Virus record (IMG/VR): IMGVR_UViG_3300005573_001035
Coordinates: 1-64,000 of that record
Direction: 5' to 3' (one strand)
From: a virus
Length of the DNA stretch: 64,000 nucleotides
Position 1 is the first letter of the stretch, and each line of letters opens with the position of its first letter. Positions 22,289 to 53,857 of the stretch are shown here, one piece after another. Below the pieces are notes generated by a model. It was not told where the DNA came from. It worked only from the letters and a program-made list of their open reading frames with translations, and did not search any database. Made by a program: the position numbers and the translations under genes.

Positions 22289-22981
22289 CTATTTTTCCTT
22301 TGCTAGTAACCACCAAGAAAGATTAAATCCACTATCTTTTCTATGTATATGAACTCGAAAATCACAACCAAATGCTTCTAGCAACTCATTGTAAGCCTCC
22401 TGAAAAGTACCTAACTCTGGAGTCAAAAGAGGAAGCATTTTTCTAGAAATTTCATGTTCCAATCCAGACCCAGTGCCAAGTTTCTCTCCAAATTGTGTCG
22501 CTATCTTAAAACGATAATAAGCAGAGAAAATTCGATTCTCAAAGGTATCTTCACTAAGCAAGAAAATAGATTCTGTTTGGGGCGATGTATCTATGTAAGG
22601 ATATTTTCTAATATCAAATAAGAGACAGGTAGCAATAAGATCCATTACCGCCCACTGGAATAATCTGAATTGAGCAATCTGCTTGTCTGAGCTACCGTTA
22701 ATTTCTTGTGGATATGTTTCGTATCTACAATCTAGTTGCTCAACTAAAAGCATTAGCATAATAGATTTACAAATACTCAAGGTAGAAACTTCGGATAGCA
22801 ACTTAGGGACATAAAGTATATGTCCTTGTTCTAGATCAGAACTAAATGTGATAATATTGCCATCATATTTCTTGGGTATGACTGGCATTACTAGATCATC
22901 TTTAAGATTAAACAAGAAGCGAGTTTCCTCTGGAATATTTGCACTAATATAAAGATCTGTTTCTATCTGTTCCGCGCTCAT
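22289..22981 (-). CDS. Hypothetical protein coupled to RNAP beta (set 1)
   Basis: ATGA overlap with the beta stop codon; no recognisable motif. Confidence 0.65.
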   Translation of the reverse strand: MSAEQIETDLYISANIPEETRFLFNLKDDLVMPVIPKKYDGNIITFSSDLEQGHILYVPKLLSEVSTLSICKSIMLMLLVEQLDCRYETYPQEINGSSDKQIAQFRLFQWAVMDLIATCLLFDIRKYPYIDTSPQTESIFLLSEDTFENRIFSAYYRFKIATQFGEKLGTGSGLEHEISRKMLPLLTPELGTFQEAYNELLEAFGCDFRVHIHRKDSGFNLSWWLLAKEK

Positions 22982-25962
22982 GGTTGAACCCCTAACACTT
23001 TTAGATAGCCTTCTAGAAGACGAAGGCTTTCCGGTTTTTGATCTTCCGGTATCGTAAACTCATCTTCGTTGTCTCCTCCTTGGATGGTTTCATATAGCCA
23101 TTTGTTCTTTAGATCAATAGCATCAGACTTTATTGTTAGACATTCTCTAAGGTTGGAAATTCCATCCATGGCAATCATTGCTCGAACTTCCATCTCTCCC
23201 AATCTTTGACCACCACCTTTGCTTCTCCCAGACGTAGGTTGGAGGGTTTTCCTGACATATGACCCCACGCATCGAGCTGACAACTTTGTTTCTGCCATGT
23301 GGATAACCTTTAACCAATAACAATAACCCACAGCAATAGGATTATCGAAGTAAGATCCAAGCTTTGGATCATAAACAGGATACTCAAATTTGCTCCTGGT
23401 ATATTTCATTGCTTTTGTTAGGTTCTTATAAGAGGTGGTTCGAAAGGGTGGTTCTATGATAACTAAAGAATCAATAAGATCAGCATCCAGGGATCTGCTA
23501 TCAAGAAGTTCTTGGATATGATCAACGACAAATTTTTCCGGGGTTTCATCTACGATGGAATAAAATTTTAGAATGTACTTTTTGATTGATTCTGGGTTGA
23601 TCCCTTTTTCTAACATTCGTTTTGCTCTTTGTTTTAGCTCATATAGAGCCATACCAAGATGCAATTCAAAAAGCTGACCAATGTTCATCCTTGAGATAAT
23701 TCCTAGAGGATTAATAATGATGTCCAGTTTTCTTCCGTCCGGAAGTTGTGGGGTTTCGTCTTCGGATATAATTGTAGATATGACGCCTTTGTTTCCATGA
23801 CGGTTTACCAACTTGTCTCCCACAGAAATTTCCCTAAAGAATATCGCCTTGAGTTCTACAAGGAGACCATCTAATTTCTCTCCTTTGATTCTATAATCTA
23901 GTTTGCCTTTGCTTGGTAACCCAGTGAGCAGAGGATGGATCTTAGAGACCTCTTTAATTTCTTCTTTAGATACAATGTTCTTCAGTTCTTTTTCGATTCT
24001 AGATCGGTCTTTCTTTTGCTTTGCAATTTGAGTTTGGACCCAGAAATCGTATTCTGGAATACTTTTATTCCAACTATTGGCATAGATTCTTCTATGATAA
24101 ATCATAATTTGCTTTGGAAAAGACAAGTTCTTATCTTCCTGAAATATCTTATTGAATTGCATAGGATTCTTAGGGATAACTTTCATCTTAGCATACGGTT
24201 GGTTTGGTTTTAGAGCCTCTCCTAGATCAGGAATTGGTTTGTACTCATCTTCAACCAGAGATAGAAGTGTAGCATTTTCCGGAACGATAAAAGATAGATC
24301 CACGCAATGAACGGATTTCAATTTATTTTCTTTAACTACCTTCTCAGAAATAACAATGGCATCTTCGTAATTATAACCATAATAGATGGCAATTCCTGTC
24401 AGTAGGTTCTTTCCTAAACAAATCGTTCTGTTCTTTAAGAAGTTGCTTTCTGCAATTATGTCGTCTTTCTTAACTCGGTCTCCGACTCTGACTTTGATAT
24501 CCATGTAATCTATACATTCAGAATATGTATTTCTTGGTGCAACATCAATGATATCTAACTCCCCGGTATCATATCTAACCAGAACGATATAATTATCTAC
24601 GTAGATAACTTCTCCATCTCCCTTGCTTAGTTTTAGGTAAGATGTATAATGCGAATAATTTGTTTCACACCCAGTTTGGATAAATGCTGGCTCCGGTTCT
24701 AGGAGCATAATAGCTTGTCTCATTTGAGAACTTGCCATCTGGAGCCTAGTTTGGTCATTTTTATCTAAGAATGGAACCATAGATACCGTGATTGAGATTG
24801 ATTGGTTACAGGGTTTTGATAGTTGTCTCTTCTCATCAAATTGAACTTTATTACAAAAACTTTGAACAATTCCACAATTATCTCTATCAGGAGTATCTAC
24901 GGGACAAACTCGTCCAAACATTGAGTCATGAATGTCTCGAACTTCTTTTGGAACACTAATCCTTCTATATGCCAATGGACCAATAACTGAAAAGCGAGTT
25001 AGTTCAGAAAGTTCATAAATTGGATTATAGAATGTATCACTTTGAATAATCTCACTTACATTACATTCAGAAATGATATGACTCGAGTTAACTGAGAATT
25101 TAGGTTTGTCAGTTTTTCGATTCGTTAAGCAAAACTGGAAAATGTTATTTGCAATGGGGGCTGTAATAAAGTATTCTATTCCTCGGATTCTTTTATTTTC
25201 GAAATTAAGGTGGTCTATAACTGGCCATCCGTTCTTGAGATGCTCGATAATGTGCTCCATAATTGACCCATTCTTAAAGAATGGTCGATTGTATAGATCA
25301 ATTCTCAGGGCTGTGTTAAGAGCATAGATAATATTTTCCCCCTTATCTTGGGCATTGTACTTAGCATAGTGCCTCCCAATGTCTTTAAGCAATAATTCGT
25401 AGTCCCCATTAGAATCTTCATAGTATGCTTTTAGTTCATCTATGAACTGAGTATATAATTCGTTTCCTGATTGGTCGTAGTTATCGATAAGATCTTTCGC
25501 CTTCTCATAACCCATCCACGCTAAAGAGAGAAGGCTCAGGGGAATACTTTTGCCAAAGATAAGTACACTGCTTGGTGTTGCTTGTATTTGCAGCGTATTT
25601 GTAACTATCCATAGAGTATTGCCTTTTGTAATGGTAGGTACATCTACTAACTGAAATCTTGGTAGTTTTCTTTTTCCATTTACTATGAGATAGTTATTAT
25701 CTACTAGTTTGGGAATTGTCACTGAAAGATTAATTGTCGCGCCTCTTCCTTCTAAAATAATTACAAGGTTACTTTTCTTAGTCGGTGCTAATTCTATAAA
25801 GGTTTCCCTTGGTTCTTTGATATCCAGTTCTCTAATTGTATATCCTAGTTCTTCGCATGGAATAAGCATTTCTCTAACATCATCAAGGATCTTGTTATAA
25901 TCATACTGCTTTAAATAGTATGTGGTTATCTCACCATCGAAAATAGGATCTTTTACTCCCAT
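22978..25962 (-). CDS. rpoB: Multisubunit RNA polymerase beta-like subunit (set 1)
   Basis: GRVCPVDTPD, RLQMASSQMRQA, GYNYEDAIVIS, GDKLVNRHGNKG, NPLGIISRMNIGQ, GGQRLGEME. Confidence 0.95.
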   Translation of the reverse strand: MGVKDPIFDGEITTYYLKQYDYNKILDDVREMLIPCEELGYTIRELDIKEPRETFIELAPTKKSNLVIILEGRGATINLSVTIPKLVDNNYLIVNGKRKLPRFQLVDVPTITKGNTLWIVTNTLQIQATPSSVLIFGKSIPLSLLSLAWMGYEKAKDLIDNYDQSGNELYTQFIDELKAYYEDSNGDYELLLKDIGRHYAKYNAQDKGENIIYALNTALRIDLYNRPFFKNGSIMEHIIEHLKNGWPVIDHLNFENKRIRGIEYFITAPIANNIFQFCLTNRKTDKPKFSVNSSHIISECNVSEIIQSDTFYNPIYELSELTRFSVIGPLAYRRISVPKEVRDIHDSMFGRVCPVDTPDRDNCGIVQSFCNKVQFDEKRQLSKPCNQSISITVSMVPFLDKNDQTRLQMASSQMRQAIMLLEPEPAFIQTGCETNYSHYTSYLKLSKGDGEVIYVDNYIVLVRYDTGELDIIDVAPRNTYSECIDYMDIKVRVGDRVKKDDIIAESNFLKNRTICLGKNLLTGIAIYYGYNYEDAIVISEKVVKENKLKSVHCVDLSFIVPENATLLSLVEDEYKPIPDLGEALKPNQPYAKMKVIPKNPMQFNKIFQEDKNLSFPKQIMIYHRRIYANSWNKSIPEYDFWVQTQIAKQKKDRSRIEKELKNIVSKEEIKEVSKIHPLLTGLPSKGKLDYRIKGEKLDGLLVELKAIFFREISVGDKLVNRHGNKGVISTIISEDETPQLPDGRKLDIIINPLGIISRMNIGQLFELHLGMALYELKQRAKRMLEKGINPESIKKYILKFYSIVDETPEKFVVDHIQELLDSRSLDADLIDSLVIIEPPFRTTSYKNLTKAMKYTRSKFEYPVYDPKLGSYFDNPIAVGYCYWLKVIHMAETKLSARCVGSYVRKTLQPTSGRSKGGGQRLGEMEVRAMIAMDGISNLRECLTIKSDAIDLKNKWLYETIQGGDNEDEFTIPEDQKPESLRLLEGYLKVLGVQP

Positions 25963-25975
25963 CTCCCCTCCTTCC

Positions 25976-28720
25976 TTAGCGCTCTTCTCTCATATTGAAG
26001 AACAAAACCTGGTCAACAACTCCATGATATCCTCTCGAACTGGTCAAACTCTTAATGATATGTAAAGATGGTCGAGAAAATGCTAGACCCAACAAGTACG
26101 ATTCTTTGCTAGGAATTTTCTGGATACTAATTAATGACATTGGTACATTGTCTCGATCTGGGAGTGTTCGCCACTTAGTTTCTCCGGCCCAAGCCATTTG
26201 GCATACTACACACTCAAAATGGATTAGGAGCAACTTTCTTCTAGATACATAGATGGAAAACAATTTCTTAACTACTTGGGCAGGAGTGAAGTTATCTGGA
26301 TGGTGCAATATATACGATATCGCTGGTAGTTCAGACGCTATATCATATTGCCTAACCTTCTCAGAAGATTCTTTCTTAGAACCTCGAATATTAGCAACTC
26401 CGCTGGTATGGAATGTTCTAAGAATTAGCTGAGTATTGCACTCGCCCAGAGATTGAGCGGCGATTGCTCCAATATAAGGGCTGTGTAATTTGCTTGCTAA
26501 GGTCCCGTAGCAAGTCTTGCAAATTTTGAGAGATTTACAATAGATTGGTGATCGAAGATAGATTGTTTTTCCTACGATGTCTGGTAGTCTGTCTCTAGTA
26601 ACTTCTAACAAGTTGACATCTGAAAGAGAGAACTTGAAGAATCTTCCAATCAAAGAGCTAGCTAACTCATTAGAATCAATAGAAAGCTCCAAGTAATCAT
26701 TTGTCCCGCAGTCATCCAAATTCAGATCTAGTTCTAGATTGATACAAGCAAAGTCCAATTGCCTACTTAGATAACCTGAGTTACCAGTATTTAAAGCAAC
26801 GTCTAAAAGCCCCTTTCGAACACCGTACGTTGATGTGAAGAATTCTTCTGGAGATAATCCTTCAGTTAGGCACTTGACTACGGGTCTCTCAACAATCTCA
26901 CCAGCAAAATTAGATACATACCCTCGACTCAAGATTAACTGGCGGGCTTGTTCCCAGCTTCCTCGACTTCCAGAATCTATAATAGATGAGTAAGGAAAGA
27001 TGTCTTGAATTTTTTGTTTTATTTCGTTGCTTTGTAGGGCTTGAAGTTGAGCTGAGATTACTTCCGAAGAGTTTGCTTGGTGTTGCAAATTAGTTCCATA
27101 GATTGAATCTCGAATTGGTACTAAATCTGAGTAATTGAACCCTTTGAGAGACATAGTTGTACCATTCTTGGTACTAACAAAAAATCCTAGGTCTTTACTG
27201 CGTTCTAATACATCTACTACAACTTCTGGGGGATAGCTATTTTTAAGAGCGTCTAGGATTTGGAGGAGTTTCTTCTTGGTAATAGGCTCATTAACAAGGG
27301 GAAAATCTGGAGGGAGAATTTGATTGAACTTTGCTCGACCCTCAGTTATATTCTCCCCTTTACAAAGAACTTTGTTGCCATCTTCATTCTTCGTTAGAAG
27401 GAATAGACCAAGAACAATGTCTTGATTGGGAACAAATGAGATTGAATCATCTGCTGGATTTTGAATATTAGCGAAGCATGAAAATTTAGTTTCAACCTCC
27501 TTTTTGGATTCTTTTAGAACTGGGGCATAGATCGCCATCTGGTCCCCATCAAAGTCAGCATTATACGGATTGCAAACAAGGGGATGAATCTTAATAACTG
27601 GCTCTTTATGAACTTTGATCTTAAATCCAAGGATACTTAGGCGATGTAAACTAGGTTGGCGATTTAGTAGAACGTACTCGCCCTCTGCCAATTGTTGGCA
27701 TATTGGAAAGAGAGAAGTATCGTTTTTAGCAATACATTCATCAATTAGATCTAGGGCTAAATTTAGGTTGCTCGATTTGCCCTTATGATATAAGAATTTT
27801 GCAACCTTCAATTTCCATATTTCTAAGAATACTAAGTAGGGAATGGAACAAGTTCCAAATTCTAGAGTTGGATCTGGGACAATGACACATCTTCCAGAAA
27901 AATCAATTCTTTTACCAAGGATATTATTTCTAATGATGCCTTTCTTCTTCGATAATTTTGTTAGAATATTTCGATATAAGGCGAAATATGCTTTCTGTAA
28001 CTTATTGAAGTACTGGCGATATAGTTTTGGATCGTTTCTTATATTGACAATTGTGGACGAAATGGCTTCCTTGGTGGTTAGAATTGATAGGTAATGCTGG
28101 TTAATTTCATCTAAGACTTGGTTCCTAACTGACCCTACAAACATAATTGGTCGAAGTTCTGGAGGGAGGACTATGACCTTATCTACGAATAGTTTGTCTA
28201 GATTTTTGGTGACTTTTTGAAATAGGGAACTATGCTCAGCGTATGAAGGAGAGAAAATAAACTGGACTAATTTGTAAATCGCCTCCAGGTGTTCGTAATA
28301 TGTTACACCAGGTGGAACAAGACTTTTCTGAGTAACAACGTAAGAATCTTCATCTTCCGCATATAAGACATAATCTTCCTTATAAAGCAACGTATCAATA
28401 TTCTTTGAGATTCTGGTTCCTACTAGGTTTTTGATCCAATCGTAGAAAACTGGATTAACCACTTTGAAGGGAAGAGTTATTTTTGCAAATCTTTTTCTCC
28501 TTTCGTCGGAGGATACAATATCTACTCCGCAAGCTGGACATTGCTTGCCTTCATGTGCGGCAGTGTAGAAAATCCCGCATTGGCAGGTGTAGCTAGTTAC
28601 TGGGCCGAAGATTTGCTCCGAAAAAAGACCTCTAGGACTGAACTTGTTCTTTTGAATAAATTGTGCTGTCTCGACTTCTGGTAGATCTGAACAAAAGGTA
28701 TCGATATCAAGAAGATCCAT
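25976..28720 (-). CDS. rpoC: Multisubunit RNA polymerase beta'-like subunit (set 1)
   Basis: GLFSEQIFGP, Zn-binding CQCG...CPAC, LGKRIDFSGR, NRQPSLH, catalytic NADFDGD, GECNTQLILRTFH. Likely start 28720. Confidence 0.96.
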   Translation of the reverse strand: MDLLDIDTFCSDLPEVETAQFIQKNKFSPRGLFSEQIFGPVTSYTCQCGIFYTAAHEGKQCPACGVDIVSSDERRKRFAKITLPFKVVNPVFYDWIKNLVGTRISKNIDTLLYKEDYVLYAEDEDSYVVTQKSLVPPGVTYYEHLEAIYKLVQFIFSPSYAEHSSLFQKVTKNLDKLFVDKVIVLPPELRPIMFVGSVRNQVLDEINQHYLSILTTKEAISSTIVNIRNDPKLYRQYFNKLQKAYFALYRNILTKLSKKKGIIRNNILGKRIDFSGRCVIVPDPTLEFGTCSIPYLVFLEIWKLKVAKFLYHKGKSSNLNLALDLIDECIAKNDTSLFPICQQLAEGEYVLLNRQPSLHRLSILGFKIKVHKEPVIKIHPLVCNPYNADFDGDQMAIYAPVLKESKKEVETKFSCFANIQNPADDSISFVPNQDIVLGLFLLTKNEDGNKVLCKGENITEGRAKFNQILPPDFPLVNEPITKKKLLQILDALKNSYPPEVVVDVLERSKDLGFFVSTKNGTTMSLKGFNYSDLVPIRDSIYGTNLQHQANSSEVISAQLQALQSNEIKQKIQDIFPYSSIIDSGSRGSWEQARQLILSRGYVSNFAGEIVERPVVKCLTEGLSPEEFFTSTYGVRKGLLDVALNTGNSGYLSRQLDFACINLELDLNLDDCGTNDYLELSIDSNELASSLIGRFFKFSLSDVNLLEVTRDRLPDIVGKTIYLRSPIYCKSLKICKTCYGTLASKLHSPYIGAIAAQSLGECNTQLILRTFHTSGVANIRGSKKESSEKVRQYDIASELPAISYILHHPDNFTPAQVVKKLFSIYVSRRKLLLIHFECVVCQMAWAGETKWRTLPDRDNVPMSLISIQKIPSKESYLLGLAFSRPSLHIIKSLTSSRGYHGVVDQVLFFNMREER

Positions 28721-28855
28721 CTTCCCTCCTCTCCTATGCATGAGTTTATAGACATTCCCTCAAATCAAAGTACGTTTCTGAATAAGAAGAGGAACTTCTT
28801 GCTTTCTAGCCCTTCCCACATTGCGAGGATATTATAATATACCCCTGTACAAAAA

Positions 28856-30695: not shown

Positions 30696-30721
30696 ATCTC
30701 CTTTCTCTAGATATATCAGTC

Positions 30722-36269: not shown

Positions 36270-36362
36270 GTCGTATACCTCCTTCGTTTTTTCGTAATTC
36301 TTTATGTGTGGGTTCTTCTTTTTCTTCAACCAAATGAAAGATTACAAAAGTTAGAATCTTTA

Positions 36363-38214: not shown

Positions 38215-39693
38215 TCACTCCTTTCTTTTTGTTACGTTGTTCAGGATCTGCAATGCTTCGGATTTTGAAAGATTCTCGATCTTATTTTTCATAACATCAT
38301 AAAGACGGTATTCAACATCCCATTGTTTCTGATTGTAAACTTTAAGCCTAGTATAGTAAGATGAAGCAATCTCAGCACAGCCAAAATCAACAATATCGAA
38401 AAATACAGGATCTTTCTTCCCAGGATAGATTCTAAGAATCCTTCCACAAAGCTGTTCTACATTTTGAACGGGAGTTGCCATAATGAGACAATCTTTATGA
38501 GGAGCATCAATTCCATCTCGTATCTTTTGGGGAGTTGCAAGAACAATTGGATTATCCAAGTTTTCTAGCGTATCTGCTTGAATGAAGGTAGAAGGATTGA
38601 ATTTTGTAAATAAGTCTACAAGCTTTGTTATAAACTTAATTCTTTCACAAATGAAGAGAATGTTTCGTTCTTTATCAATTGCTGTTCGTAAAAGCTTACA
38701 GCATAGTTTAAAGAAAGCCTCACTTGCGCATAACTTAGTTATATATCTTGGTCTTTGGAATATGTTATTCCAGTATATATACTTGTTGGGTCTTTGTATA
38801 TTAGTAAATTTTCCAAGAATAACCACAATTAGTGGTCTCATAGTGGTTGTTCCTTCTTGGATCTGAAAAACATCACCCAGATGATACTGGATTATATCTG
38901 AATTTCCATCAAATCGATAAGGAGTTGCTGACAATCCATAACTATACTTAGTAGGAATCAAAATAGAGCACTTACTAAAAGTAGGAGCCCCAACGCTCGT
39001 ATGAACCTCATCTGCTATAAACACGCCAAAGCCAGCATCTTTTAGTAAATCTAAGAACTCAGTTCTTCTTTCCTCTTCTTTCAGTTGAGAAATAAAGAAC
39101 TGATCAGTAGTTATTACAATTGGTTTTTGCAATTCCTCAGAAATATTCTTTCTGGATCTTAGAGTTCCAATCTGCTCAGGTTCAATGTTGGTGCAATCTA
39201 GAAATCTGTTAAACCATTGGTCAACCAACTGAGACCGGTGTGTCAGAATAATTGTTTTTAGTTTCCTAGTACAAATCATATGAATAGAAATAACAGTTTT
39301 TCCAGATCCTGGGGGAAGTTGGAGAATTCCATTTTCATTTCGAATAAGGTAATTGTAAGCCAGTTCTTGAGCCTCATCTCGAAGCTTGATCTTGCTTTCC
39401 AACCAAGGAATTTGGACAGGATCTTTTATGTTATCTTCAATGACAAATTCCCCTGAATAGCACTTATGTATCGGGAAATATCTTGGTACCAGAAGATAGT
39501 CTCCATCTTCTTCATAAAACTTGACAATAGAAACATCTTCGCTCGTATATTCCTTAACCGTTCTAGTTAGCATTCTTTTAGCTCTAGAAATAAGTTCTGG
39601 ATATGCATATGGAATTCGGATTCCAGATGTCCTTTCTAGATATATCATTTCATTCTCCAAGTACTGAAAGAGAGACCTTTGTAATTTTCTCAT
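38215..39693 (-). CDS. Superfamily 2 helicase (UvsW/XPB-like)
   Basis: LPPGSGKT, DEVH, GLSATP, DGID, QLCGRILR. Confidence 0.9.
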   Translation of the reverse strand: MRKLQRSLFQYLENEMIYLERTSGIRIPYAYPELISRAKRMLTRTVKEYTSEDVSIVKFYEEDGDYLLVPRYFPIHKCYSGEFVIEDNIKDPVQIPWLESKIKLRDEAQELAYNYLIRNENGILQLPPGSGKTVISIHMICTRKLKTIILTHRSQLVDQWFNRFLDCTNIEPEQIGTLRSRKNISEELQKPIVITTDQFFISQLKEEERRTEFLDLLKDAGFGVFIADEVHTSVGAPTFSKCSILIPTKYSYGLSATPYRFDGNSDIIQYHLGDVFQIQEGTTTMRPLIVVILGKFTNIQRPNKYIYWNNIFQRPRYITKLCASEAFFKLCCKLLRTAIDKERNILFICERIKFITKLVDLFTKFNPSTFIQADTLENLDNPIVLATPQKIRDGIDAPHKDCLIMATPVQNVEQLCGRILRIYPGKKDPVFFDIVDFGCAEIASSYYTRLKVYNQKQWDVEYRLYDVMKNKIENLSKSEALQILNNVTKRKE

Positions 39694-44488: not shown

Positions 44489-44499
44489 TTTTCATCTCC

Positions 44500-45066: not shown

Positions 45067-45234
45067 GATATGTTACCTCCCTTTCGTAAAGTTCATAACA
45101 AGTTATCCCTTTTTCGTAATCGAAAGTAGATCCAACTATTTGCCTCCTTTCCAGTTACTTTTCTTTTTCTAGCTATTCTCTCTGGTATGTATATCACATT
45201 TTCTCATTCCTCCTTTCTTTCCCTACAACGAATT

Positions 45235-45454: not shown

Positions 45455-45520
45455 CTACGAATTTCCAATAATTAATATATAAAGTTAATGGCTTCCAAAA
45501 CAGAATAATTCTAGTAGAAA

Positions 45521-46445: not shown

Positions 46446-46477
46446 TTGTTTTTTTGGCTCCTTTCTAACCCCGGCTC

Positions 46478-48043
46478 TTAGCCGGTTAACATGATACTTG
46501 TTAAATATGCTTTGAGCAATTCTTTAGGAGTATTTGTCTTTGCCTCAACAAAAGACGAATGTCCTGTTTGGATTATGTTACTAATAATTTCATTTTTTGA
46601 TACAACATCGTCCGCTATTGGACCAAAGAACTCACTCAAAAGAGCTAAACAATTGTATCCAATGAGAACATACGTCTCAGCCTCGCCTAGTCTCTGACCC
46701 CCACCTCTCGATTTTCCTGCTACTGGTTGCCTAGTTTTAGATGTATACAATCCAGTGGACCTAGCATGGACCTTGAACTCAGCAATATGTTCTAGTTTAT
46801 TAATATACATGTAACCCACAGGAACTGGGTAGTATGTTTTTTGGTTATCATAACATGGTAGCACTAGGTGGTATTTTGTTTGTAACCCAGCCGCTTTCAA
46901 AGCAAGTAAAATCTCCTTATACGTAGGAGCTTTAAATGGCGGAATAAGAATAGGAAAAAATTCAAACTTTTTTGTTTGTTCTAGTAACTCCCTAAATTGA
47001 GAGGGAGAAGAGGTTTGAATGAAACGAATTACCGAACTAGAATAACGCTGATTTGGAGTCTTATCTAATAAGGGAAGAATTAAACTAACAATTCTTTCTA
47101 CATTTTGTTTAGTGGGGCTAGATAGAATCTTTCTTGCCATCCATTTAGAAAGAAGGCCCACATAGAGTTCATAAAGCTGACCCACATTCATTCTATTAAC
47201 AATGCCAAGGGGGTTTAAGATAAGCTCAACTCTTTCTCCCCACGGAGTTATAGGCATAGAGTCTTCATCTTCAATCAAGGCAATCGTCCCTTTGTTACCA
47301 TGACGATTAGAGAGTTTGTCCCCAGTGGTTATATTTAGCTGGAATCTAAGATAGAATTTCAATAGGGTCTTTTCTAATTTCTCCCCCTTGTTAGTTAGAA
47401 TTTGAGAAGGACTGATATTATATCTTTTTCTCGTCTCTTGTGACAAACCATGTAAGATAGGTGGAGGATTGTTACTGAAACAATCAATTTGCATAATAAA
47501 CCCACCTGGACTTTTCTTCACATAGAGTCCAGATTCCATTTCTTCTAATTCTTCTTCTGAGACTTGAAAGATAGATTCTAGATTACCAGGAACTTTCTTC
47601 AATAATGGTTCGCCTTTTTTGGTATCCGTTCCTTCTGGAACAATGTACACAACTCGATCATCTGGTTCAATTTCTTCTTCGATAACCAAGGAGTGGTAAG
47701 AAACCAACTTTTGTTGCTCAACTACTGAGCTGCTAATCACAATGGCATCTTCGAAGTTATAACCCTTGTACGGCATTATAGCGGTTAGAAAGTTTCTTCC
47801 TGTACTAATGCTTCCATAAGATACGCATGCCCCCTCAGCAATGATCTGGTTCTTTTGAACGATCTCTCCTGGAGACACAACAGGATGAAAAACAGATAGC
47901 GTATGCTTTCCACTCCCACTTCGTAGTATAGTAGGTCTTATATCAATAGAAATCCTATTGCTAGCGGATAGGCCATCTTTTTGAGATGGGGAGTATCGAA
48001 CTTGCTCAATAAGACCGTCCTGTTGTTGTGTTTCTTCTAACAC
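46478..48043 (-). CDS. rpoB: RNA polymerase beta-like subunit, C-terminal part (set 2)
   Basis: GYNFEDAIVIS, GDKLSNRHGNKG, NPLGIVNRMNVGQ, HARSTG, GGQRLGEAE. Confidence 0.93.
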   Translation of the reverse strand: MLEETQQQDGLIEQVRYSPSQKDGLSASNRISIDIRPTILRSGSGKHTLSVFHPVVSPGEIVQKNQIIAEGACVSYGSISTGRNFLTAIMPYKGYNFEDAIVISSSVVEQQKLVSYHSLVIEEEIEPDDRVVYIVPEGTDTKKGEPLLKKVPGNLESIFQVSEEELEEMESGLYVKKSPGGFIMQIDCFSNNPPPILHGLSQETRKRYNISPSQILTNKGEKLEKTLLKFYLRFQLNITTGDKLSNRHGNKGTIALIEDEDSMPITPWGERVELILNPLGIVNRMNVGQLYELYVGLLSKWMARKILSSPTKQNVERIVSLILPLLDKTPNQRYSSSVIRFIQTSSPSQFRELLEQTKKFEFFPILIPPFKAPTYKEILLALKAAGLQTKYHLVLPCYDNQKTYYPVPVGYMYINKLEHIAEFKVHARSTGLYTSKTRQPVAGKSRGGGQRLGEAETYVLIGYNCLALLSEFFGPIADDVVSKNEIISNIIQTGHSSFVEAKTNTPKELLKAYLTSIMLTG

Positions 48044-48067
48044 CTTAGTTTGGTTCTCCTCTCTTTT

Positions 48068-50776
48068 TTACGAAAGTGGTTGGAGAATAATACTATCTTG
48101 ACTAACATTTAGAACCCGAGCTTTAGTAGGAGACCTCTTGACAAATTTATCTGACAAGTAATTGGTTAAAATTCCTTCATACCCGCTCATTACGGCAGGG
48201 GGCTCAGGATTGCTGAGCGGAAGAGCTTGTTTCATTTGCTGAGTTGCCATCATGACCCTGGCCCCATCATTCATTTCTATAAAGGGAATTAAAGAAGAGG
48301 TTGTGCTTAGAATACCAGAACCCTCACTATTAGACCCATCGCTCTTTCCAAATATACCCCTAGCACTGCTTATATAACTCCCAATAGCAAGTTGTTGGTT
48401 AATTCCGATATTTCCTCCTTCTGGGGTATCAACTGGGTCAATGTTGGAGTAATATGATGGATCTAAATTTCTCTTTGCCACTGAGACTGCTTCTCTTGAT
48501 ATGGCGCCCGTAGTTTTTCCTACGAACGTAACTTTCGTTATTTCTGCTAGTTCCTCTACTGGATTCTGGTATTCCATCTTAGAAACAATCTCGGAATTTC
48601 GAAATTGGGTTAGAACCTTATTGGGTTCAATTTCAAGTTTAGCGTTATAGTTTCCAGCTAAAATCTGCTCTCTATACAATGAGTACTGGGCTAAGATGTA
48701 TTTTTGAAGATAATTAACAAAGATCTCAGAACTTCGAAGTCGATAATATGTTAGATCATTTGGCCTATGGGTTTTTCCTTCTGAAATTCCATGGCACATG
48801 TAGTATATGATTTGTGGAAGATTTACAGGCAAGTACATACTAAGAAGAATCTGTTTAGCCATGGAGTCAACGATATTAGATAGAATCTCAAATAGAACAT
48901 AAACTACTCTTCTACTTCCAGACACGATCTCAATAATATCTTTGTATAAATCTTTGCTCTCGATTGGTTTATCTGTAGAAGATGGAAACTTTATTCTTCT
49001 GAATGAATTTGCAAATAGCTCTTGTTCCTTATTTCTTATGCCTGTGATTATAAGAAAGAGGTTAGTCGCAACTTTTATAAGCAACTCTCCCTCGGAAATA
49101 TTTCTGGGTCTTTTGGTTTCAATTCGATATGATAACGAAAACAATTCAAGCGCCTCTTTAAGTCCCATGTAAGCACAAAGAACTAAGGCCAAAGGATACT
49201 GACCAGCAGCAATAAAGATACTAAAGTAATTGTAACTTCTAGTTTCCTTTAAACTAATCGTAAAGGTAGAATAGGCGCTCCTAAATACACTAACTCCCCT
49301 TTCAGGAAATGTTATTGGAACTATAAATAACTGGTTAACAAGAAGGTTAATCTTGCCATCAATAAGCATTCTACCATCTGATTGGACTTTTGGAATATAA
49401 ATCTGTATCTTTTGTAATTGATTATTGTAATTTCTAATTGTAATCTGCAAAATTGAAATATCACTAGGAGAAACGTCATATTTTGATGGTTGATATTCTT
49501 TGATTTGATATGATACAATCTTTGTAGGAATATCTTTTGATTCCAGAACCTTGAATGTTTCTATTGAGTCCTTTATTAAGTTAGTTTCAAAGTCCTTTTT
49601 CCTCTTCTCAACTATATGGCCTGGTACCTTGTCATCTACCAGCTCAGTCACAGGAGCTGCTTTCACAACAGGATGGCTGGCTTGAGTTTGAACTTTCTCT
49701 GGTTCTAAGAACTCATCTTTTAGGTTTGTCACAAGTTTTGCTAAAACTTGTTTCTTTTCCTTGGTGGTAAGACTGGAAGCTATTCTGGCGATCCTGCTTG
49801 GATTAGGAATTGTCCTAGAAACGATAGACTTAAAAGCTAAGTCAATAGATTTGTGGACAATGGGTTCGGGTGGTTTTGAAATAAGAGATGGAATCTTTTT
49901 CTTCTCAGCATTAGAAGGCTCAGGAACCGAAGATGCATATACGAGAATGTCATTATCCGCGTCTTCCAAATTCTTTTTAACCAGGTAAGATGATATACTT
50001 TTTTGAATAACTTCCTGGTCTACTTCTGGAACTTCCTCATTCACAACCGGGGAGACAGCACTTGCAATAGTACTAGCATGTTGCTCAACTTCTTTGGAAT
50101 CAAGATTGGATCCTTGTTTACTTGCTTCGGTTTTAATCATTGTAATTCGATTTAAGACCCTCACATAGTTCACGTCTCGGTCTTTAACTAAAAGACGGTA
50201 TAAGACTCCTTTTGTCGGGGAAATTGTACATAACAACAAATCATCAAATGGCAACTCAGTTGGCTGTGTTTTTAGAAGTTTTAAGATTGGAAATAACTTA
50301 GAATTCATATAGTAGGGAACATTCTTTGATACATCTACCATATAGATCAAGACTTTTCGGTGGCGCGGAAATTGACTTAACGTAGAAAATAAGAACCTGG
50401 TAATAAATTGTCCATAACGCATTCTGTAGTTGGTGGGTTTAAACTTAATATCCATAGAAGAGAAAAACCAACTATAATCAATCATAAAATTGCGAGCAAT
50501 CATACTTATCGTTGGAGTCATTTTAAGAGGAACCAACCTTTTCTTTCGATACAAAGTTATGAGCTTCGCAGATAAGAAAGTTCTGGGAATAACCGTGCTA
50601 GGAACTACAACATGAAAAGAATCAATCCTTCTAATTTTAAGTGCTTCGTAGTTTTCTAACATTGTGGTATTCTCAGGAAAGAAAACAAGCAAATAAGGCC
50701 TAGTTTTCGTATACGGAAAATAGACCTGAGAAACCACTTGGACATAAGGAATAAGTTGGTCTAGACGTCTAGCCAC
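48068..50776 (-). CDS. rpoB: RNA polymerase beta-like subunit, N-terminal part with long extension (set 2)
   Basis: NPVEELAE, IDPVDTPEGGNIG, LIPFIEMNDGARVMMATQQMKQA. About 390 N-terminal residues have no counterpart in set 1 beta. Confidence 0.88.
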   Translation of the reverse strand: MARRLDQLIPYVQVVSQVYFPYTKTRPYLLVFFPENTTMLENYEALKIRRIDSFHVVVPSTVIPRTFLSAKLITLYRKKRLVPLKMTPTISMIARNFMIDYSWFFSSMDIKFKPTNYRMRYGQFITRFLFSTLSQFPRHRKVLIYMVDVSKNVPYYMNSKLFPILKLLKTQPTELPFDDLLLCTISPTKGVLYRLLVKDRDVNYVRVLNRITMIKTEASKQGSNLDSKEVEQHASTIASAVSPVVNEEVPEVDQEVIQKSISSYLVKKNLEDADNDILVYASSVPEPSNAEKKKIPSLISKPPEPIVHKSIDLAFKSIVSRTIPNPSRIARIASSLTTKEKKQVLAKLVTNLKDEFLEPEKVQTQASHPVVKAAPVTELVDDKVPGHIVEKRKKDFETNLIKDSIETFKVLESKDIPTKIVSYQIKEYQPSKYDVSPSDISILQITIRNYNNQLQKIQIYIPKVQSDGRMLIDGKINLLVNQLFIVPITFPERGVSVFRSAYSTFTISLKETRSYNYFSIFIAAGQYPLALVLCAYMGLKEALELFSLSYRIETKRPRNISEGELLIKVATNLFLIITGIRNKEQELFANSFRRIKFPSSTDKPIESKDLYKDIIEIVSGSRRVVYVLFEILSNIVDSMAKQILLSMYLPVNLPQIIYYMCHGISEGKTHRPNDLTYYRLRSSEIFVNYLQKYILAQYSLYREQILAGNYNAKLEIEPNKVLTQFRNSEIVSKMEYQNPVEELAEITKVTFVGKTTGAISREAVSVAKRNLDPSYYSNIDPVDTPEGGNIGINQQLAIGSYISSARGIFGKSDGSNSEGSGILSTTSSLIPFIEMNDGARVMMATQQMKQALPLSNPEPPAVMSGYEGILTNYLSDKFVKRSPTKARVLNVSQDSIILQPLS

Positions 50777-50800
50777 TTTGTTTTGTTTTCCTCCTGAGAG

Positions 50801-53800
50801 TTACTTCTTTGTAAATTTCCCCTGGATTTCTTTAAAATCTCCCGCCAAAACTTGCTCTAAGATACTAAGTTCTTCTGGAGATTTCTCAGATAGAAGACCT
50901 AACATAATACTTTTGTTTACATTCTCAAACGCCAGGCCTTGAAGCGGTGACTGAACAAAAACTACCTCTTTAATATTTAAGAGGATTGGTTCATATGGCT
51001 CAATTAGCCTAGCGGGTTTAGACAAATCTTTCTTTGCTCTGAGTACGTGGCTCACTAAGACCTCTAAATGGACTAAATCCATAGCCCCAAACGAGGAGTA
51101 TACTGATACAAGACGACTTAAAAGATGGTGGGGGCCTTTCGTAATTTCTCTTCCAGATAGAAGACGCTGAACATATAGAACTTGTTTTTGAACATCGCTT
51201 ATGGTAGAAGGTACTTTTAGTAGATCATCTTCCTCTCCGTAGCTTATTTCAATAACTTCCTCTCTTTTCACAACGCTAGAACCAAGTTGCAATTCTACAG
51301 GATAATCTAAAATGAGTTCTAAACGATAACCATCTGAAAATAAAACTGTAGCAATAAGTGACTTAACCCAGATAGAAGTTTCTTTTATTACAAGATTATA
51401 ATTATACGTATAGAATGGATCTAAGACAATAGTCAATCTACATGGCATTTTGGTTATGAGCCGAGTTTGGTCTTGATACAAATACTTAGATAAAAGCGTC
51501 TTATCTCGAATCTCAAAATTGTTTTCTGTAATGTCTTTTAGTATATCTGGAATCTGAACATTGACCGTCCCACCTAAGTGGAATACTCGCATTATAAGCT
51601 GCGTTCCCCTCTCTCCTATCACTTGGGCTGCTATAAGCCCAACGTAAGGAGATCGAGTTTGCATCCATAAGTTACCATAACATGTATGACAAATCTTAGG
51701 ACTCTTGCAAAAGATAGGACTTCGTAACTTAATTGTATCTCCATCTGCAAAGTTATCTAAGTCAAGAAATTCCACTTTCTTGGTCTTATCGTTTATAATA
51801 AAGCGACCAGAAAGACGAGATCTAAGATCTTTATTTAACTTAACCTGGACTGCTCTTTGTGTCCCGCAATCTGTAAGAGTCCTATGCAACTCAACAGAAT
51901 TTAGAACGTAAGCCAAAATTCTAGAAAAATAACCTGTATCTGCCGTATTTATAACTCGGTTGATAATTCCGTATCTCGCTCCATATCCCATGTTAAAGTA
52001 CTCATTAGGAGTCAAACCATCTGCCAGGCCCTTAGAGATTGTTGGTAAGATATTTCCCTCAGCGTCAGATACGGTTCCTTTCGCAGCGATAATCTGAAGT
52101 GGCTGCTGCCAAGATTTAGCACCTCCAGATTCCACGAGATCATATAGAGAAGAATCTTTAAGAAGCTCAGGTAACTCAGCTTTCATCTTTGTTAGGATCT
52201 TCTCAGCCTGTTCTGGGGTTGCCATTGCAAGCTGTTGTTTGTAATGATTTAATTTTTCGGAAACCGTTAGATCATCTAAACTTATTGAAGGTGCGAACAA
52301 AGTAGCGTACTTAAAACCAAGATCTTGTAATTCGTATGCAATGTTTGCTATCTGATCTTGAGGATATCCTTTTGCAAGCAAATCTTTAAAGATCTGATCT
52401 ATTACCTTTCTGTCGGCTGGTTTGCTAGAAACATAAGATTGGAATTCTTCAGGAAGTTTTAACGCTAGAATCCATCTTCCAACGGTCATTACTTTTCCTC
52501 TGAAAGACACTAACTGATATATATCGGACATCCTCTTTATAGATTCCTCATTCTGAACCGTAATAACCGTTGAGGGATGACTTGGTGGGGGATCTTTTGT
52601 GAGAAGATACAATCCAGTATACATTTCTTTGCTTAAAGAAAATGCTAAACCCCCAACAGTGGCTGAGTTGTGGAAGGACATCATTTTAGTTCGAGCTTCT
52701 AGTTGTGCCTCATCTGTAAGAGGGTGATAGACTGCCATCGTGTCTCCATCAAAATCCGCATTAAAACCACCCACTTGCAGAGAGGGAATTCCAATTGTAT
52801 CTGTATCTGAGAGAACAGGATAAAACGCTCGGACAGATTCTCGATGCAAAACTGGGTCTCTTTTTGCGATTACTACCCTACCAGCCATGCTTGCTTCGGT
52901 GGCGTTCCACATAATTCGTTTAAGTCTATCAGGAATATGATCTCCGTCTTTAATGGCTCGTATGACTTTTAGAATCACATCGACTGATAGGGGCTCATTG
53001 GTAAATTCTTTAAGAGCTTCCCTTAGTTCGCTTGTATCTTCTCCAGAATACAAAAGCTTATGGATTATAAATGGTTCAAACATTTTAACTGCCATCTTAA
53101 ATGGCAGAGATATTTCATTTATTCGCAACGAAGGATTAGCGGAAATAACTGCTCGACCAGAATAATCAACTCGTTTACCTAGTATACTAGACCGAATCAA
53201 CCCAAATTTCTTTCCAATTCTGGCTCGGGCCAGATCATCGTATTTCATAACTTCTTCTTGTAAGTGGAATATTGAGATCGCCCCAGTTACTCCACTGGTG
53301 GTCACAGGACCAAGTGTCCGTCTAAGAATTTTAATGTAAGCATCATTAATAGAATCAATGATCCAACGACCATCAGATGATTTGAATGCTGGCCTAAAAT
53401 CAGGAGGAATAACTGGTATCTTTTGGACTGTAAAGAGCCTATCTTGGTATGCTTTTAAGAGGAAGTTATAAATCTTAGCTCTTTCACCAGTTAGATTGGC
53501 AAATCGAATCTCAGGGAATCTCTTAACAAAACCAGGAATTCCTACAATGTCTCCTCCGTTAGGGTCTTCTACTAGCTCTCCTTTGGAATTTATAGAATAG
53601 CGAGTTTGGGCCGAGAAAACATTTACGAGATTTCTAGATAATCTTATTAACATTCTGTATACAGATGGATGCAAGATAGGAACTTTCAAATCAATGTAAG
53701 AATACGTCTTTAATCTCTGAGGAGTTAAAAGAGGGCCAAAAATCGTCTCTGAAAATAGACCATCTTGATGGAAGACATCTGGTTGAGAAAATATATCTGG

Positions 53801-53857
53801 AGATGTGACTGGAATCAAACCAGAAACAAACTTTTCAACGTCAAGCAATTTAAACAT
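50801..53857 (-). CDS. rpoC: Multisubunit RNA polymerase beta'-like subunit (set 2)
   Basis: GLFSETIFGP, VIPPDFRP, LGKRVDYSGR, RDPVLH, NADFDGD, TADTGY, GERGTQLIMRVFH. Confidence 0.96.
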   Translation of the reverse strand: MFKLLDVEKFVSGLIPVTSPDIFSQPDVFHQDGLFSETIFGPLLTPQRLKTYSYIDLKVPILHPSVYRMLIRLSRNLVNVFSAQTRYSINSKGELVEDPNGGDIVGIPGFVKRFPEIRFANLTGERAKIYNFLLKAYQDRLFTVQKIPVIPPDFRPAFKSSDGRWIIDSINDAYIKILRRTLGPVTTSGVTGAISIFHLQEEVMKYDDLARARIGKKFGLIRSSILGKRVDYSGRAVISANPSLRINEISLPFKMAVKMFEPFIIHKLLYSGEDTSELREALKEFTNEPLSVDVILKVIRAIKDGDHIPDRLKRIMWNATEASMAGRVVIAKRDPVLHRESVRAFYPVLSDTDTIGIPSLQVGGFNADFDGDTMAVYHPLTDEAQLEARTKMMSFHNSATVGGLAFSLSKEMYTGLYLLTKDPPPSHPSTVITVQNEESIKRMSDIYQLVSFRGKVMTVGRWILALKLPEEFQSYVSSKPADRKVIDQIFKDLLAKGYPQDQIANIAYELQDLGFKYATLFAPSISLDDLTVSEKLNHYKQQLAMATPEQAEKILTKMKAELPELLKDSSLYDLVESGGAKSWQQPLQIIAAKGTVSDAEGNILPTISKGLADGLTPNEYFNMGYGARYGIINRVINTADTGYFSRILAYVLNSVELHRTLTDCGTQRAVQVKLNKDLRSRLSGRFIINDKTKKVEFLDLDNFADGDTIKLRSPIFCKSPKICHTCYGNLWMQTRSPYVGLIAAQVIGERGTQLIMRVFHLGGTVNVQIPDILKDITENNFEIRDKTLLSKYLYQDQTRLITKMPCRLTIVLDPFYTYNYNLVIKETSIWVKSLIATVLFSDGYRLELILDYPVELQLGSSVVKREEVIEISYGEEDDLLKVPSTISDVQKQVLYVQRLLSGREITKGPHHLLSRLVSVYSSFGAMDLVHLEVLVSHVLRAKKDLSKPARLIEPYEPILLNIKEVVFVQSPLQGLAFENVNKSIMLGLLSEKSPEELSILEQVLAGDFKEIQGKFTKK

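What the first reader, a model, noticed from the sequence alone, without database searches (positions are those of the whole stretch)
22978..53857. Two complete, distinct cellular-like RNA polymerase cores in one element
Seen: two beta'/beta sets about 18 kb apart, both with NADFDGD and RHGNKG, both ordered beta' before beta (the reverse of bacterial rpoBC), with no alpha subunit recognised in the window. Known: phiKZ/AR9-type phages have virion and non-virion RNAPs, but with beta and beta' each split and highly diverged. Here both beta' and one beta are intact with easily readable motifs. Inference: a dual-RNAP lineage that may represent a pre-split state or an independent duplication.
Basis: partly seen in the sequence, partly recalled or inferred. 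Interest (0 to 1): 0.8.

Follow-up and report, generated by a model that had tools for sequence, protein, structure and literature searches.

The report
Unsplit virion and non-virion phage polymerases
An uncultured giant phage carries two bacterial-type RNA polymerases that look like whole-gene counterparts of the fragmented virion and non-virion polymerases of phiKZ- and AR9-type phages, which bears on how those odd enzymes arose.

Summary
The window holds two beta'/beta gene sets on the minus strand, 17.7 kb apart, each ordered beta' then beta. Both carry NADFDGD and RHGNKG.

The element is an uncultured jumbo phage. It probably belongs to the 'mReC' lineage of Weinheimer & Aylward 2020, and it shares about 30 genes with Bacillus phage AR9. 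Two beta' genes occur in 14 of 17 related IMG/VR records searched, including all 3 complete ones.

Set A (46478-53857) resembles virion RNAPs:
- Profiles score AR9 vRNAP beta'-N 146 bits (A) against 34 (B), and phiKZ gp180 85 against 26.
- A lacks the beta' zinc-binding motif, as those subunits do.

Set B (22978-28741) resembles non-virion RNAPs.

ORF 54643-56088 is a structural homologue of the fifth nvRNAP subunit, AR9 gp226 / phiKZ gp68 (Z 19.1).

Unlike phiKZ and AR9, the genes are mostly unsplit. Set A shows sporadic fission. Here a single in-frame TAA cuts its beta, and this is seen in four sequence variants.

Trees place all these phage RNAPs in one clade but cannot separate shared ancestry from independent duplication. 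Virion packaging is inferred, not shown.

I found no paper describing this.

The parts
54643..56088 (-). 481-aa homologue of the fifth, sigma-like promoter-specificity subunit of non-virion RNAPs (AR9 gp226 / phiKZ gp68).
   Evidence: phrog_25005 'RNA polymerase', E 8e-4, collinear. hhalign against AR9 gp226, E 0.017, same region. AlphaFold2 model pLDDT 78.6. Foldseek 7s01_A E 4.9e-5 and 8que_B E 9.9e-4. VIA-align Z 19.1 with 410 residues aligned to 7s01_A, Z 9.0-9.2 to phiKZ nvRNAP chain B, next unrelated row Z 5.5. That these chains are gp226 and gp68 is inferred from their lengths and my recall. One copy in 5 of 5 relatives.
50801..53857 (-). Set A beta' (1018 aa), virion-RNAP-like. NADFDGD at residues 366-372. 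No N-terminal zinc-binding motif.
   Evidence: Pfam. Profile scores. tblastn of its first ~240 residues hits phiKZ-like phages among 296 records, some annotated virion-associated. Zinc-motif gap shared with AR9 vRNAP beta'-N, phiKZ gp180 and Fnp1 gp14.
48068..50776 (-). Set A beta, N-terminal piece (902 aa), with a ~385-aa N-terminal extension absent from set B beta.
   Evidence: Pfam Rpb2_3. Alignment to set B beta. The A-beta profile is the only one of three that hits AR9 vRNAP beta exon (56 bits), phiKZ gp178 (44) and Fnp1 1488-aa beta (93).
48044..48070 (-). In-frame TAA (48068-48070) plus a 24-nt spacer with a GAGGAG motif. This divides set A beta into two genes.
   Evidence: 902-aa and 521-aa products appear in four sequence variants on contigs of 73952, 72155, 137619 and 11659 bp. 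The stop is unchanged in contigs of 4 runs.
46478..48043 (-). Set A beta, C-terminal piece (521 aa), with RHGNKG.
   Evidence: Pfam Rpb2_6 and Rpb2_7..
25976..28741 (-). Set B beta' (921 aa), non-virion-RNAP-like. Zinc motif CQC...CPAC at residues 53-71. NADFDGD at 394-400.
   Evidence: Pfam. Profile scores favour B for all four nvRNAP beta' pieces of AR9 and phiKZ. B + nvRNAP clade 95/92 in the N-part tree. Cys motifs.
22978..25962 (-). Set B beta (994 aa), intact, with RHGNKG.
   Evidence: Pfam. AR9 nvRNAP beta-N is hit only by the B profile (81 bits). AR9 nvRNAP beta-C scores B 151, A 99, bacteria 97.
38215..39693 (-). SF2 (ResIII) helicase, homologue of the AR9 helicase encoded next to nvRNAP beta'-C. 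A possible transcription partner (inferred).
   Evidence: Pfam ResIII. BLASTP to AR9 130427-131860, E 4e-14, annotated DNA/RNA helicase beside the nvRNAP subunit. Iyer et al. 2021 link such a helicase to phage RNAPs (passages read).

Best explanation
The window comes from an uncultured jumbo tailed phage related to AR9/PBS1-type phages and probably belonging to the mReC clade. It encodes a two-polymerase transcription system homologous to the one in AR9 and phiKZ.

Set A (beta' 50801-53857, beta 46478-50776) is the counterpart of the virion RNAP. By analogy it would be made late, packaged, injected with the DNA, and used to transcribe early genes.

Set B (beta' 25976-28741, beta 22978-25962) is the counterpart of the non-virion RNAP, which transcribes middle and late genes. 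It probably works with the gp226/gp68-like subunit (54643-56088).

Shown here:
- the homology;
- the conservation of both sets across the lineage;
- the gp226-like fold;
- the mostly unsplit gene structure.

Inferred:
- virion packaging;
- the temporal division of labour;
- which core the gp226-like protein joins;
- that the v/nv duplication predates the split from AR9- and phiKZ-type phages, so that their fragmented subunits arose by fission.
For: (1) Two beta' genes occur in 5 of 5 large relatives and in 9 of 12 further records. All 3 records rated 100% complete have both. Two betas occur in 5 of 5.

(2) Profile scores in bits, A versus B:
- AR9 vRNAP beta'-N: 146 vs 34.
- phiKZ gp180: 85 vs 26.
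- phiKZ gp80: 21 vs 12.
- AR9 vRNAP beta exon, phiKZ gp178 and the Fnp1 beta are hit by the A profile only.
- All four nvRNAP beta' pieces and both AR9 nvRNAP beta pieces score higher with B.
- The AR9 virion and non-virion labels come from the record's annotation.

(3) The zinc-binding CxC...CxxC motif:
- Absent, with the same ~28-column gap, from A (6 of 6), AR9 vRNAP beta'-N, phiKZ gp180 and Fnp1 gp14.
- Present in B (6 of 6), all 4 bacteria shown, Y65, Va2, phiKZ gp55 and the Fnp1 490-aa piece.

(4) The last ~240 residues of A beta' match a standalone AR9 'virion structural protein' at E 2.6e-5. A beta' is split at profile position 778/780 in 8 loci. AR9 vRNAP beta'-C and phiKZ gp80 end at about 771 and 770.

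(5) In the N-part tree, A + B + v + nv form one clade at 100/99, apart from bacteria and single-RNAP phages. B + nv is supported at 95/92. Constraining A + v raises the log-likelihood by 3.09.

(6) The gp226-like subunit reaches Z 19.1.

(7) BLASTP at 1e-5 links about 30 G001 genes to AR9, including major head protein, sheath, protease and terminase.
Against: - AR9 vRNAP beta'-C scores higher with B (115) than with A (91). One AR9 vRNAP beta exon (149149-150078) is hit by B (70) and bacteria (42) but not by A.
- The unconstrained tree placed A beside (B + nv), though weakly at 81/49.
- The AU test rejects neither A + v (p 0.595) nor A + B (p 0.506, log-likelihood only 0.60 lower).
- The C-part tree is unresolved inside the clade.
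- The phiKZ, AR9 and Fnp1 rows are long branches.
- AR9 nvRNAP beta'-N has also lost the zinc motif, so that loss can recur.
- A and B resemble each other (29% identity, E 6e-88) more than either resembles any AR9 or phiKZ piece.
- The gp226-like gene sits beside set A, not set B.
- No virion proteome, transcript data or promoter motif is available.
Confidence: 0.62

Rival explanations
1. Independent duplication. A and B arose by duplication inside this lineage after it diverged from AR9- and phiKZ-type phages. The likeness of A to virion RNAPs would then be convergence or a rate artefact.
For: The AU test does not reject an A + B clade (log-likelihood 0.60 lower, p 0.506). A and B are each other's best full-length match (29% identity, E 6e-88; 275-326 bits). 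AR9 vRNAP beta'-C scores slightly higher with B.
Against: Under this model AR9 and phiKZ virion pieces should match the slower-evolving B at least as well as A. Instead they score 146 vs 34 and 85 vs 26 for A. The zinc-motif gap has the same bounds in A and in three virion-type beta' proteins. The A beta' C-terminal piece matches an AR9 virion protein. The split site nearly coincides with the virion RNAPs' own break.
Confidence: 0.15
2. Same orthology, opposite polarity. The split subunits of phiKZ and AR9 are ancestral, as Iyer et al. 2021 proposed, and the whole genes here arose by fusion.
For: Iyer et al. argue from unique inserts that the phage enzymes branch early and that multi-piece forms fused (passages read). 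Fnp1 combines whole virion-type genes with a split non-virion beta', so states are mixed among phages.
Against: Bacteria, the single-RNAP phages Y65 and Va2, and both A and B have whole genes. Fusion would therefore need several independent, exactly collinear events. Within this lineage the direction observed is fission at five or more sites in a minority of genomes. One is a single nonsense codon.
Confidence: 0.12
3. Assembly chimera, or a recent capture of host rpoBC: one of the two sets does not belong to this phage's long-term gene set.
For: None found.
Against: Both sets lie on one contig in 14 of 17 related records, including genomes with terminal repeats. Composition is even. The best bacterial beta' among 185,579 species genomes is only 27-32% identical, with no favoured phylum. 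Both sets fall inside the phage clade.
Confidence: 0.02

Closest known systems
AR9/PBS1 (Takahashivirus) and phiKZ-type virion and non-virion multisubunit RNAPs
   Same: Two paralogous beta/beta' sets. No alpha subunit found. A gp226/gp68-like fifth subunit. The virion-type beta' lacks the zinc-binding motif. An SF2 helicase homologue is present. About 30 further genes are shared with AR9.
   Different: Here beta' and beta are single genes in most genomes. After removing duplicates: B beta' 77 of 77, B beta 76 of 77, A beta' 29 of 37, A beta 32 of 34. AR9 and phiKZ have four to five pieces per enzyme (Sokolova 2020, passages read). Each set here is a beta'-beta gene pair rather than scattered genes. 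BLASTP at 1e-5 gave no hit to phiKZ chimallin or PhuZ. Virion packaging is untested.
mReC, the multimeric-RNAP-encoding Caudovirales (Weinheimer & Aylward 2020, PMC7481178)
   Same: Uncultured IMG/VR phage contigs, some over 200 kb, with cellular-like beta and beta' that branch apart from bacteria. Major capsid protein of Pfam Gp23 type, in 5 of 5 relatives here (paper section 5 read).
   Different: The paper's main text treats one beta/beta' pair per contig. It says nothing of two sets, of virion versus non-virion types, or of phiKZ (term search). Sokolova 2020 states that jumbo-phage RNAPs were left out of its tree. I could not confirm that this window's relatives are among its 97 contigs because the supplements were not seen.
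Single-RNAP phages with whole beta' (Rhizobium phage RHph_Y65, Vibrio phage Va2)
   Same: Whole beta' of 1128 and 1206 aa in cultured phages.
   Different: One beta' per genome by PF00623. They score higher with the bacterial profile (678 and 422 bits) than with B or A. They fall outside the A + B + v + nv clade.
Fusobacterium phage JD-Fnp1
   Same: A cultured phage with a whole virion-type beta' (930 aa, A profile 187 bits vs B 58) and a whole 1488-aa beta hit only by the A profile.
   Different: Its non-virion-type beta' is split (490 + 649 aa). Its virion-type catalytic motif reads DGDLDGD rather than NADFDGD. The record annotates the beta' as 'subunit alpha'.

Membership tests
phiKZ/AR9-type dual multisubunit RNAP system | Two paralogous beta/beta' sets in one phage genome | tested here: met
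   Window. 14 of 17 related records.
phiKZ/AR9-type dual multisubunit RNAP system | One set orthologous to virion RNAP subunits, the other to non-virion subunits | tested here: inconclusive
   Profile scores and the shared zinc-motif gap support it. Trees and AU tests do not discriminate.
phiKZ/AR9-type dual multisubunit RNAP system | beta and beta' each split into two or more polypeptides | tested here: not met
   Whole genes in most genomes. In the window only set A beta is cut, by one TAA.
phiKZ/AR9-type dual multisubunit RNAP system | Fifth nvRNAP subunit (gp68/gp226 family) | tested here: met
   Z 19.1 to 7s01_A and Z 9.0-9.2 to phiKZ nvRNAP chain B. Foldseek E 4.9e-5. Chain identities are inferred from length and recall.
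phiKZ/AR9-type dual multisubunit RNAP system | No alpha subunit homologue | tested here: met
   PF01000 in 0 of 5 relatives, against 14 of 14 controls. No alpha family in the 45 of 49 window ORFs scanned. Omega and sigma-70 families were not searched.
phiKZ/AR9-type dual multisubunit RNAP system | One enzyme packaged in the virion; infection resistant to rifampicin | not testable with these tools
   No cultured member in the phage collection: best tblastn identity is below 30%.
mReC clade (Weinheimer & Aylward 2020) | Caudovirales contig encoding beta and beta' that cellular profiles recognise | tested here: met
   Pfam Rpb1 and Rpb2 domains over cut-off.
mReC clade (Weinheimer & Aylward 2020) | Major capsid protein best matching Pfam PF07068 (Gp23) | tested here: met
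   5 of 5 relatives, E 1e-32 to 4e-35. The window itself does not reach the capsid gene.
mReC clade (Weinheimer & Aylward 2020) | Large terminase of Pfam PF03237 | not tested
   Indirect only. A G001 ORF matches the AR9 terminase, which its record assigns to pfam03237.
mReC clade (Weinheimer & Aylward 2020) | Placement inside the authors' RNAP clade or contig list | not testable with these tools
   Contig names and trees are in supplements and figures that I did not see.
Chimalliviridae (nucleus-forming phages) | Chimallin (ChmA) shell protein | tested here: inconclusive
   No BLASTP hit at 1e-5 from G001 or window ORFs to any phiKZ ORF at the gp54 locus. No profile or fold search was run.

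The most novel reading that the evidence does not exclude
This widespread uncultured lineage preserves the ancestral, whole-gene form of the virion/non-virion RNAP pair. If so:
- the duplication that produced the two enzymes predates the divergence of AR9-, phiKZ- and mReC-type phages;
- the fragmented subunits of phiKZ and AR9 are derived by fission;
- the injected (virion) copy is fission-prone and can be seen breaking now, including at the same point where phiKZ and AR9 virion beta' is broken.
Probability: 0.5. Interest if true: 0.75.

Novelty: new variant of a known kind. Interest (0 to 1): 0.66.

Why it matters
A 2026 review states that it is unknown whether vRNAP and nvRNAP arose by duplication in an ancestral jumbo phage or by two separate acquisitions (PMC13282480, passage read). 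Iyer et al. 2021 argued that the split architecture is primitive.

A large, easily aligned lineage with whole-gene counterparts of both enzymes and of the sigma-like fifth subunit helps in three ways:
- It provides an intermediate that links the very divergent phiKZ and AR9 pieces to bacterial beta and beta'.
- It makes the order of duplication and fission testable.
- It offers two-gene cores that should be simpler to express and to solve than four- or five-piece enzymes.

The excess of breaks in the virion-type set is 10 of 71 genes against 1 of 154 (not corrected for shared ancestry). This fits the idea that an enzyme which must pass through the tail tolerates or favours smaller pieces. Sokolova 2020 raises that constraint.

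Tried and rejected
Tools and data that were unavailable:
- Whole genome of the window: none is held.
I used IMG/VR loci and handles instead.

Searches that found nothing:
- A single-sequence scan of IMG/VR with set A beta' found no relative. A scan with an alignment of six A sequences did.
- 'Moraphages' (PMC12619734) lack RNAP genes and are unrelated.
- The marine jumbo-phage paper PMC9123017 mentions RNAPs only for phiKZ-like clusters.
- Sequence profile of the 481-aa family against PDB sequences: only chance matches, E 0.25. The fold comparison was what identified it.
- Early-promoter search. The AR9 early-promoter core, read from annotated sites, occurs only twice on the gene strand of the window. 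The 15 intergenic gaps share no evident motif. No promoter classes could be assigned.
- RNA evidence: no RNA holder listed.

Methods that failed or were uninformative:
- MAFFT global alignment and --addfragments scattered the phiKZ pieces. I switched to hmmalign on match columns.
- beta searches of phiKZ with single proteins were too weak to discriminate.
- The break in the window's set A beta (B-beta profile position ~482-509) is not at the AR9 nvRNAP beta break (~402-415). I therefore dropped the idea of a shared beta fission site.
- Complex prediction was not used. The cores exceed its size limit.

Literature searches for a prior description of unsplit v/nv RNAPs found none. Supplements of PMC7481178 were not opened. 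Its Supplementary Dataset 1 may record two copies per contig.

Rows left out:
- The trees use 34 rows each.
- Pieces with fewer than 150 (N part) or 120 (C part) filled columns were dropped.
- AR9 intron-split genes entered as single exons.

Full report
**What is in the window**

All 49 ORFs of 150 aa or more lie on the minus strand. Pfam identifies two RNA polymerase gene sets.

- Set A: beta' at 50801-53857 (1018 aa); a 902-aa protein with Rpb2 domain 3 at 48068-50776; a 521-aa protein with Rpb2 domains 6 and 7 at 46478-48043.
- Set B: beta' at 25976-28741 (921 aa); beta at 22978-25962 (994 aa).

NADFDGD and RHGNKG are present in both sets. In each set beta' precedes beta. The two beta' proteins are 29% identical (E 6e-88). 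Set A beta has an N-terminal extension of about 385 residues that set B beta lacks.

The two set A beta pieces share one reading frame. They are separated by a single TAA at 48068-48070, followed by a GAGGAG motif and a GTG start.

Other genes in the window:
- a UDG-PolB fusion;
- SbcCD;
- topoisomerase II A and B;
- a MoxR ATPase with a VWA/DUF2201 partner;
- an SF2 helicase;
- FolE2 and a QueD-type PTPS;
- large glycosyltransferase/methyltransferase proteins.

No alpha-subunit family matched in the 45 of 49 ORFs scanned.

**What the element is**

No whole genome is held for this window.

The phage collection holds no close relative. The best tblastn identities are below 30%.

The protein database holds a very large family of ~900-aa relatives of set B beta' at 46-50% identity, on contigs up to 312 kb. 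IMG/VR gave 300 related stretches, of which 80 were kept.

In five large IMG/VR records (two with terminal repeats and rated 100% complete):
- 5 of 5 have two beta' ORFs;
- 5 of 5 have two betas;
- 5 of 5 have a Gp23-type major capsid protein;
- 5 of 5 have one copy of the 481-aa protein described below;
- 0 of 5 have an alpha subunit, against 14 of 14 controls.

Of 12 further records that could be searched (16 were asked for, 4 are not held), 9 have two beta' ORFs. The 3 with one are fragments rated 58%, 12% and 18% complete.

BLASTP of the complete relative G001 against AR9, phiKZ and JD-Fnp1 links about 30 genes to AR9. These include the major head protein, head protease, tail sheath, terminase, topoisomerase, helicase and the MoxR/VWA pair. 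Few genes link to phiKZ, and none at its chimallin or PhuZ loci.

The published lineage that fits is mReC (Weinheimer & Aylward 2020). It comprises 97 uncultured Caudovirales contigs with cellular-like beta and beta', a PF07068 capsid and a PF03237 terminase (section 5 read). I could not check contig identity because that information is in supplements and figures.

**Which polymerase is which**

I built profiles of A beta', B beta', bacterial beta' and the beta equivalents. I scored them against all ORFs of phiKZ, AR9, JD-Fnp1, RHph_Y65 and Va2. The AR9 subunits are labelled virion or non-virion in the record. phiKZ gp180 and gp80 are labelled structural head proteins.

Virion pieces, in bits:

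| Piece | A | B | Bacteria |
|---|---|---|---|
| AR9 beta'-N | 146 | 34 | 24 |
| phiKZ gp180 | 85 | 26 | no hit |
| phiKZ gp80 | 21 | 12 | no hit |
| AR9 beta exon 152969-155764 | 56 | no hit | no hit |
| phiKZ gp178 | 44 | no hit | no hit |

Non-virion pieces, in bits:

| Piece | A | B |
|---|---|---|
| AR9 beta'-N | 86 | 114 |
| AR9 beta'-C | 81 | 112 |
| phiKZ gp55 | 20 | 39 |
| phiKZ gp74 | 38 | 63 |
| AR9 beta-N | no hit | 81 |
| AR9 beta-C | 99 | 151 |

Two results go the other way. AR9 virion beta'-C scores B 115 against A 91. AR9 virion beta exon 149149-150078 scores B 70 with no hit from A.

tblastn with A beta' finds 296 phage records. Most are phiKZ-like and match through A's first ~240 residues. 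Several are annotated as virion-associated. B beta' finds 114 records.

The single-RNAP phages Y65 and Va2 score highest with the bacterial profile.

**A shared rare change**

On profile-aligned columns, the beta' zinc-binding motif (CxC...CxxC) shows this pattern:

- Present in bacteria, Y65, Va2, all six B sequences, phiKZ gp55 and the JD-Fnp1 490-aa piece.
- Missing, with the same ~28-column gap and similar flanks, from all six A sequences, AR9 virion beta'-N, phiKZ gp180 and JD-Fnp1 gp14.

AR9 non-virion beta'-N has also lost the motif, so loss is not unique to the virion type.

**A shared break point**

I surveyed IMG/VR loci for gene structure and removed duplicate sequences.

| Gene | Single ORF | Total |
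|---|---|---|
| B beta' | 77 | 77 |
| B beta | 76 | 77 |
| A beta' | 29 | 37 |
| A beta | 32 | 34 |

Fisher p is 5e-5, not corrected for shared ancestry.

Before duplicates were removed, one search listed nine loci with a split A beta'. Eight of them break at A-profile position 778/780, giving pieces of about 782 and 240 aa. The ninth (L295) breaks near position 372.

AR9 virion beta'-C ends at about position 771 and phiKZ gp80 at about 770. The non-virion beta'-C proteins run on past that point.

A profile of the ~240-aa C-terminal piece finds a standalone 249-aa AR9 protein annotated 'virion structural protein' (E 2.6e-5). This is the kind of small fifth vRNAP polypeptide that Sokolova 2020 describes for SPN3US gp244 (passage read). 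I did not fetch SPN3US.

**The window's own break**

The 902-aa and 521-aa products occur in four distinct sequence variants, on contigs of 73,952, 72,155, 137,619 and 11,659 bp. The stop codon is unchanged in contigs of four runs. Two of those runs may be the source of this DNA, and two are from other studies. One low-depth contig has a one-base deletion inside the spacer.

The break is therefore real and recent. It is not at the AR9 nvRNAP beta break.

**The fifth subunit**

ORF 54643-56088 (481 aa) has no Pfam match. It has 52 homologues of similar length.

- It weakly matches phrog_25005 'RNA polymerase'.
- It weakly matches AR9 gp226 by hhalign over the same region.
- Its AlphaFold2 model has pLDDT 78.6.
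- Foldseek's top three hits are AR9 nvRNAP holoenzyme chain A in two entries, and phiKZ nvRNAP chain B.
- VIA-align gives Z 19.1 and 18.7 to the AR9 chain and Z 9.0-9.2 to the phiKZ chain. Mycobacterial sigma-A follows at Z about 5.

That these chains are gp226 and gp68 rests on their lengths and on my recall of those structures.

**Trees**

N-terminal beta' columns (34 rows, 324 columns, LG+C20+F+G4):
- A + B + virion + non-virion + JD-Fnp1 form one clade at 100/99, apart from 13 bacteria and from Y65 and Va2.
- B + non-virion is supported at 95/92.
- The virion pieces form a clade at 100/99.
- A forms a clade at 99/98.
- The free search put A beside (B + nv) at only 81/49.

Constraint tests:
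- Holding A + virion together gave a log-likelihood 3.09 higher than the free tree (p-AU 0.595).
- Holding A + B together cost only 0.60 (p-AU 0.506).

The C-terminal columns recover the same overall clade (94/95) but leave its inside unresolved. The trees therefore show a common origin of these phage RNAPs but do not settle the pairing.

**Reading**

The profile asymmetry, the shared zinc-motif gap, the virion-protein match and the near-coincident break point together favour set A as the whole-gene counterpart of the virion RNAP. Set B plus the 481-aa protein would be the counterpart of the non-virion holoenzyme.

Whole genes are found in bacteria, in single-RNAP phages and in both sets here. 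Breaks are scattered among a minority of A genes. Parsimony therefore favours whole genes as ancestral and fission as derived.

Packaging, timing and the partner of the 481-aa protein remain inferred.

**Literature**

I read passages or sections of PMC7598289, PMC7824862, PMC13282480, PMC12908238, PMC7481178, PMC9123017 and PMC12619734. None describes whole-gene virion and non-virion RNAP pairs. Seven searches found no such paper.

Earlier notes of this scan on the same genome concern other features, and none bears on the polymerases.

Noticed in passing
L274:781-4914 and L287:6986-11170: Set A beta' carries an in-frame insert of ~377 aa at A-profile position 752. In L274 the insert has a LAGLIDADG_3 domain, so it is probably an intein. 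It lies about 27 positions before the recurrent 778/780 break.
   Followed up: partly
L295:4213-8914: Set A beta' is cut near the catalytic NADFDGD (profile position ~372) by a 352-aa ORF carrying DUF7487. This may be a mobile element.
   Followed up: partly
L116 / JD-Fnp1 record 14842-17634, 94306-98769, 100787-102256, 144730-146676: The cultured Fusobacterium phage JD-Fnp1 has whole virion-type beta' (annotated 'subunit alpha', catalytic motif DGDLDGD) and whole virion-type beta. Its non-virion-type beta' is split (490 + 649 aa). This is the reverse of the trend in the window's lineage.
   Followed up: partly
window 3-2210 (-): A family B DNA polymerase with an N-terminal uracil-DNA-glycosylase-superfamily domain. 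Its closest match in the comparison was the AR9 DNA polymerase, although AR9 has uracil-containing DNA.
   Followed up: no
window 21389-22258, 39697-40338, 17703-18278 (-): FolE2-type GTP cyclohydrolase I, a QueD-type 6-pyruvoyl-tetrahydropterin synthase and a dCTP-deaminase-like protein. This hints at a 7-deazaguanine or other DNA base modification pathway.
   Followed up: no
window 56122-56973 (-): A caspase-family (Peptidase_C14) protein, E 2.9e-28, encoded just upstream of the gp226-like gene.
   Followed up: no
L174 (GTDB contig in a Thermoplasmatales archaeon MAG): A 34.7-kb contig with set B-type beta' (45% identical) and beta sits in an archaeal metagenome-assembled genome. This is probably a phage contig binned by mistake, so it gives no host evidence.
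   Followed up: no
window 48049: One run's contig (X3, depth 3.3) lacks one base inside the 24-nt spacer between the two set A beta pieces. This is tolerable only if the spacer is not translated. Low depth means it may be an error.
   Followed up: no
window 33952-36329 (-): A MoxR-type AAA ATPase and a VWA/DUF2201 metallopeptidase-like partner, conserved as a pair with AR9 (21908-24583).
   Followed up: no
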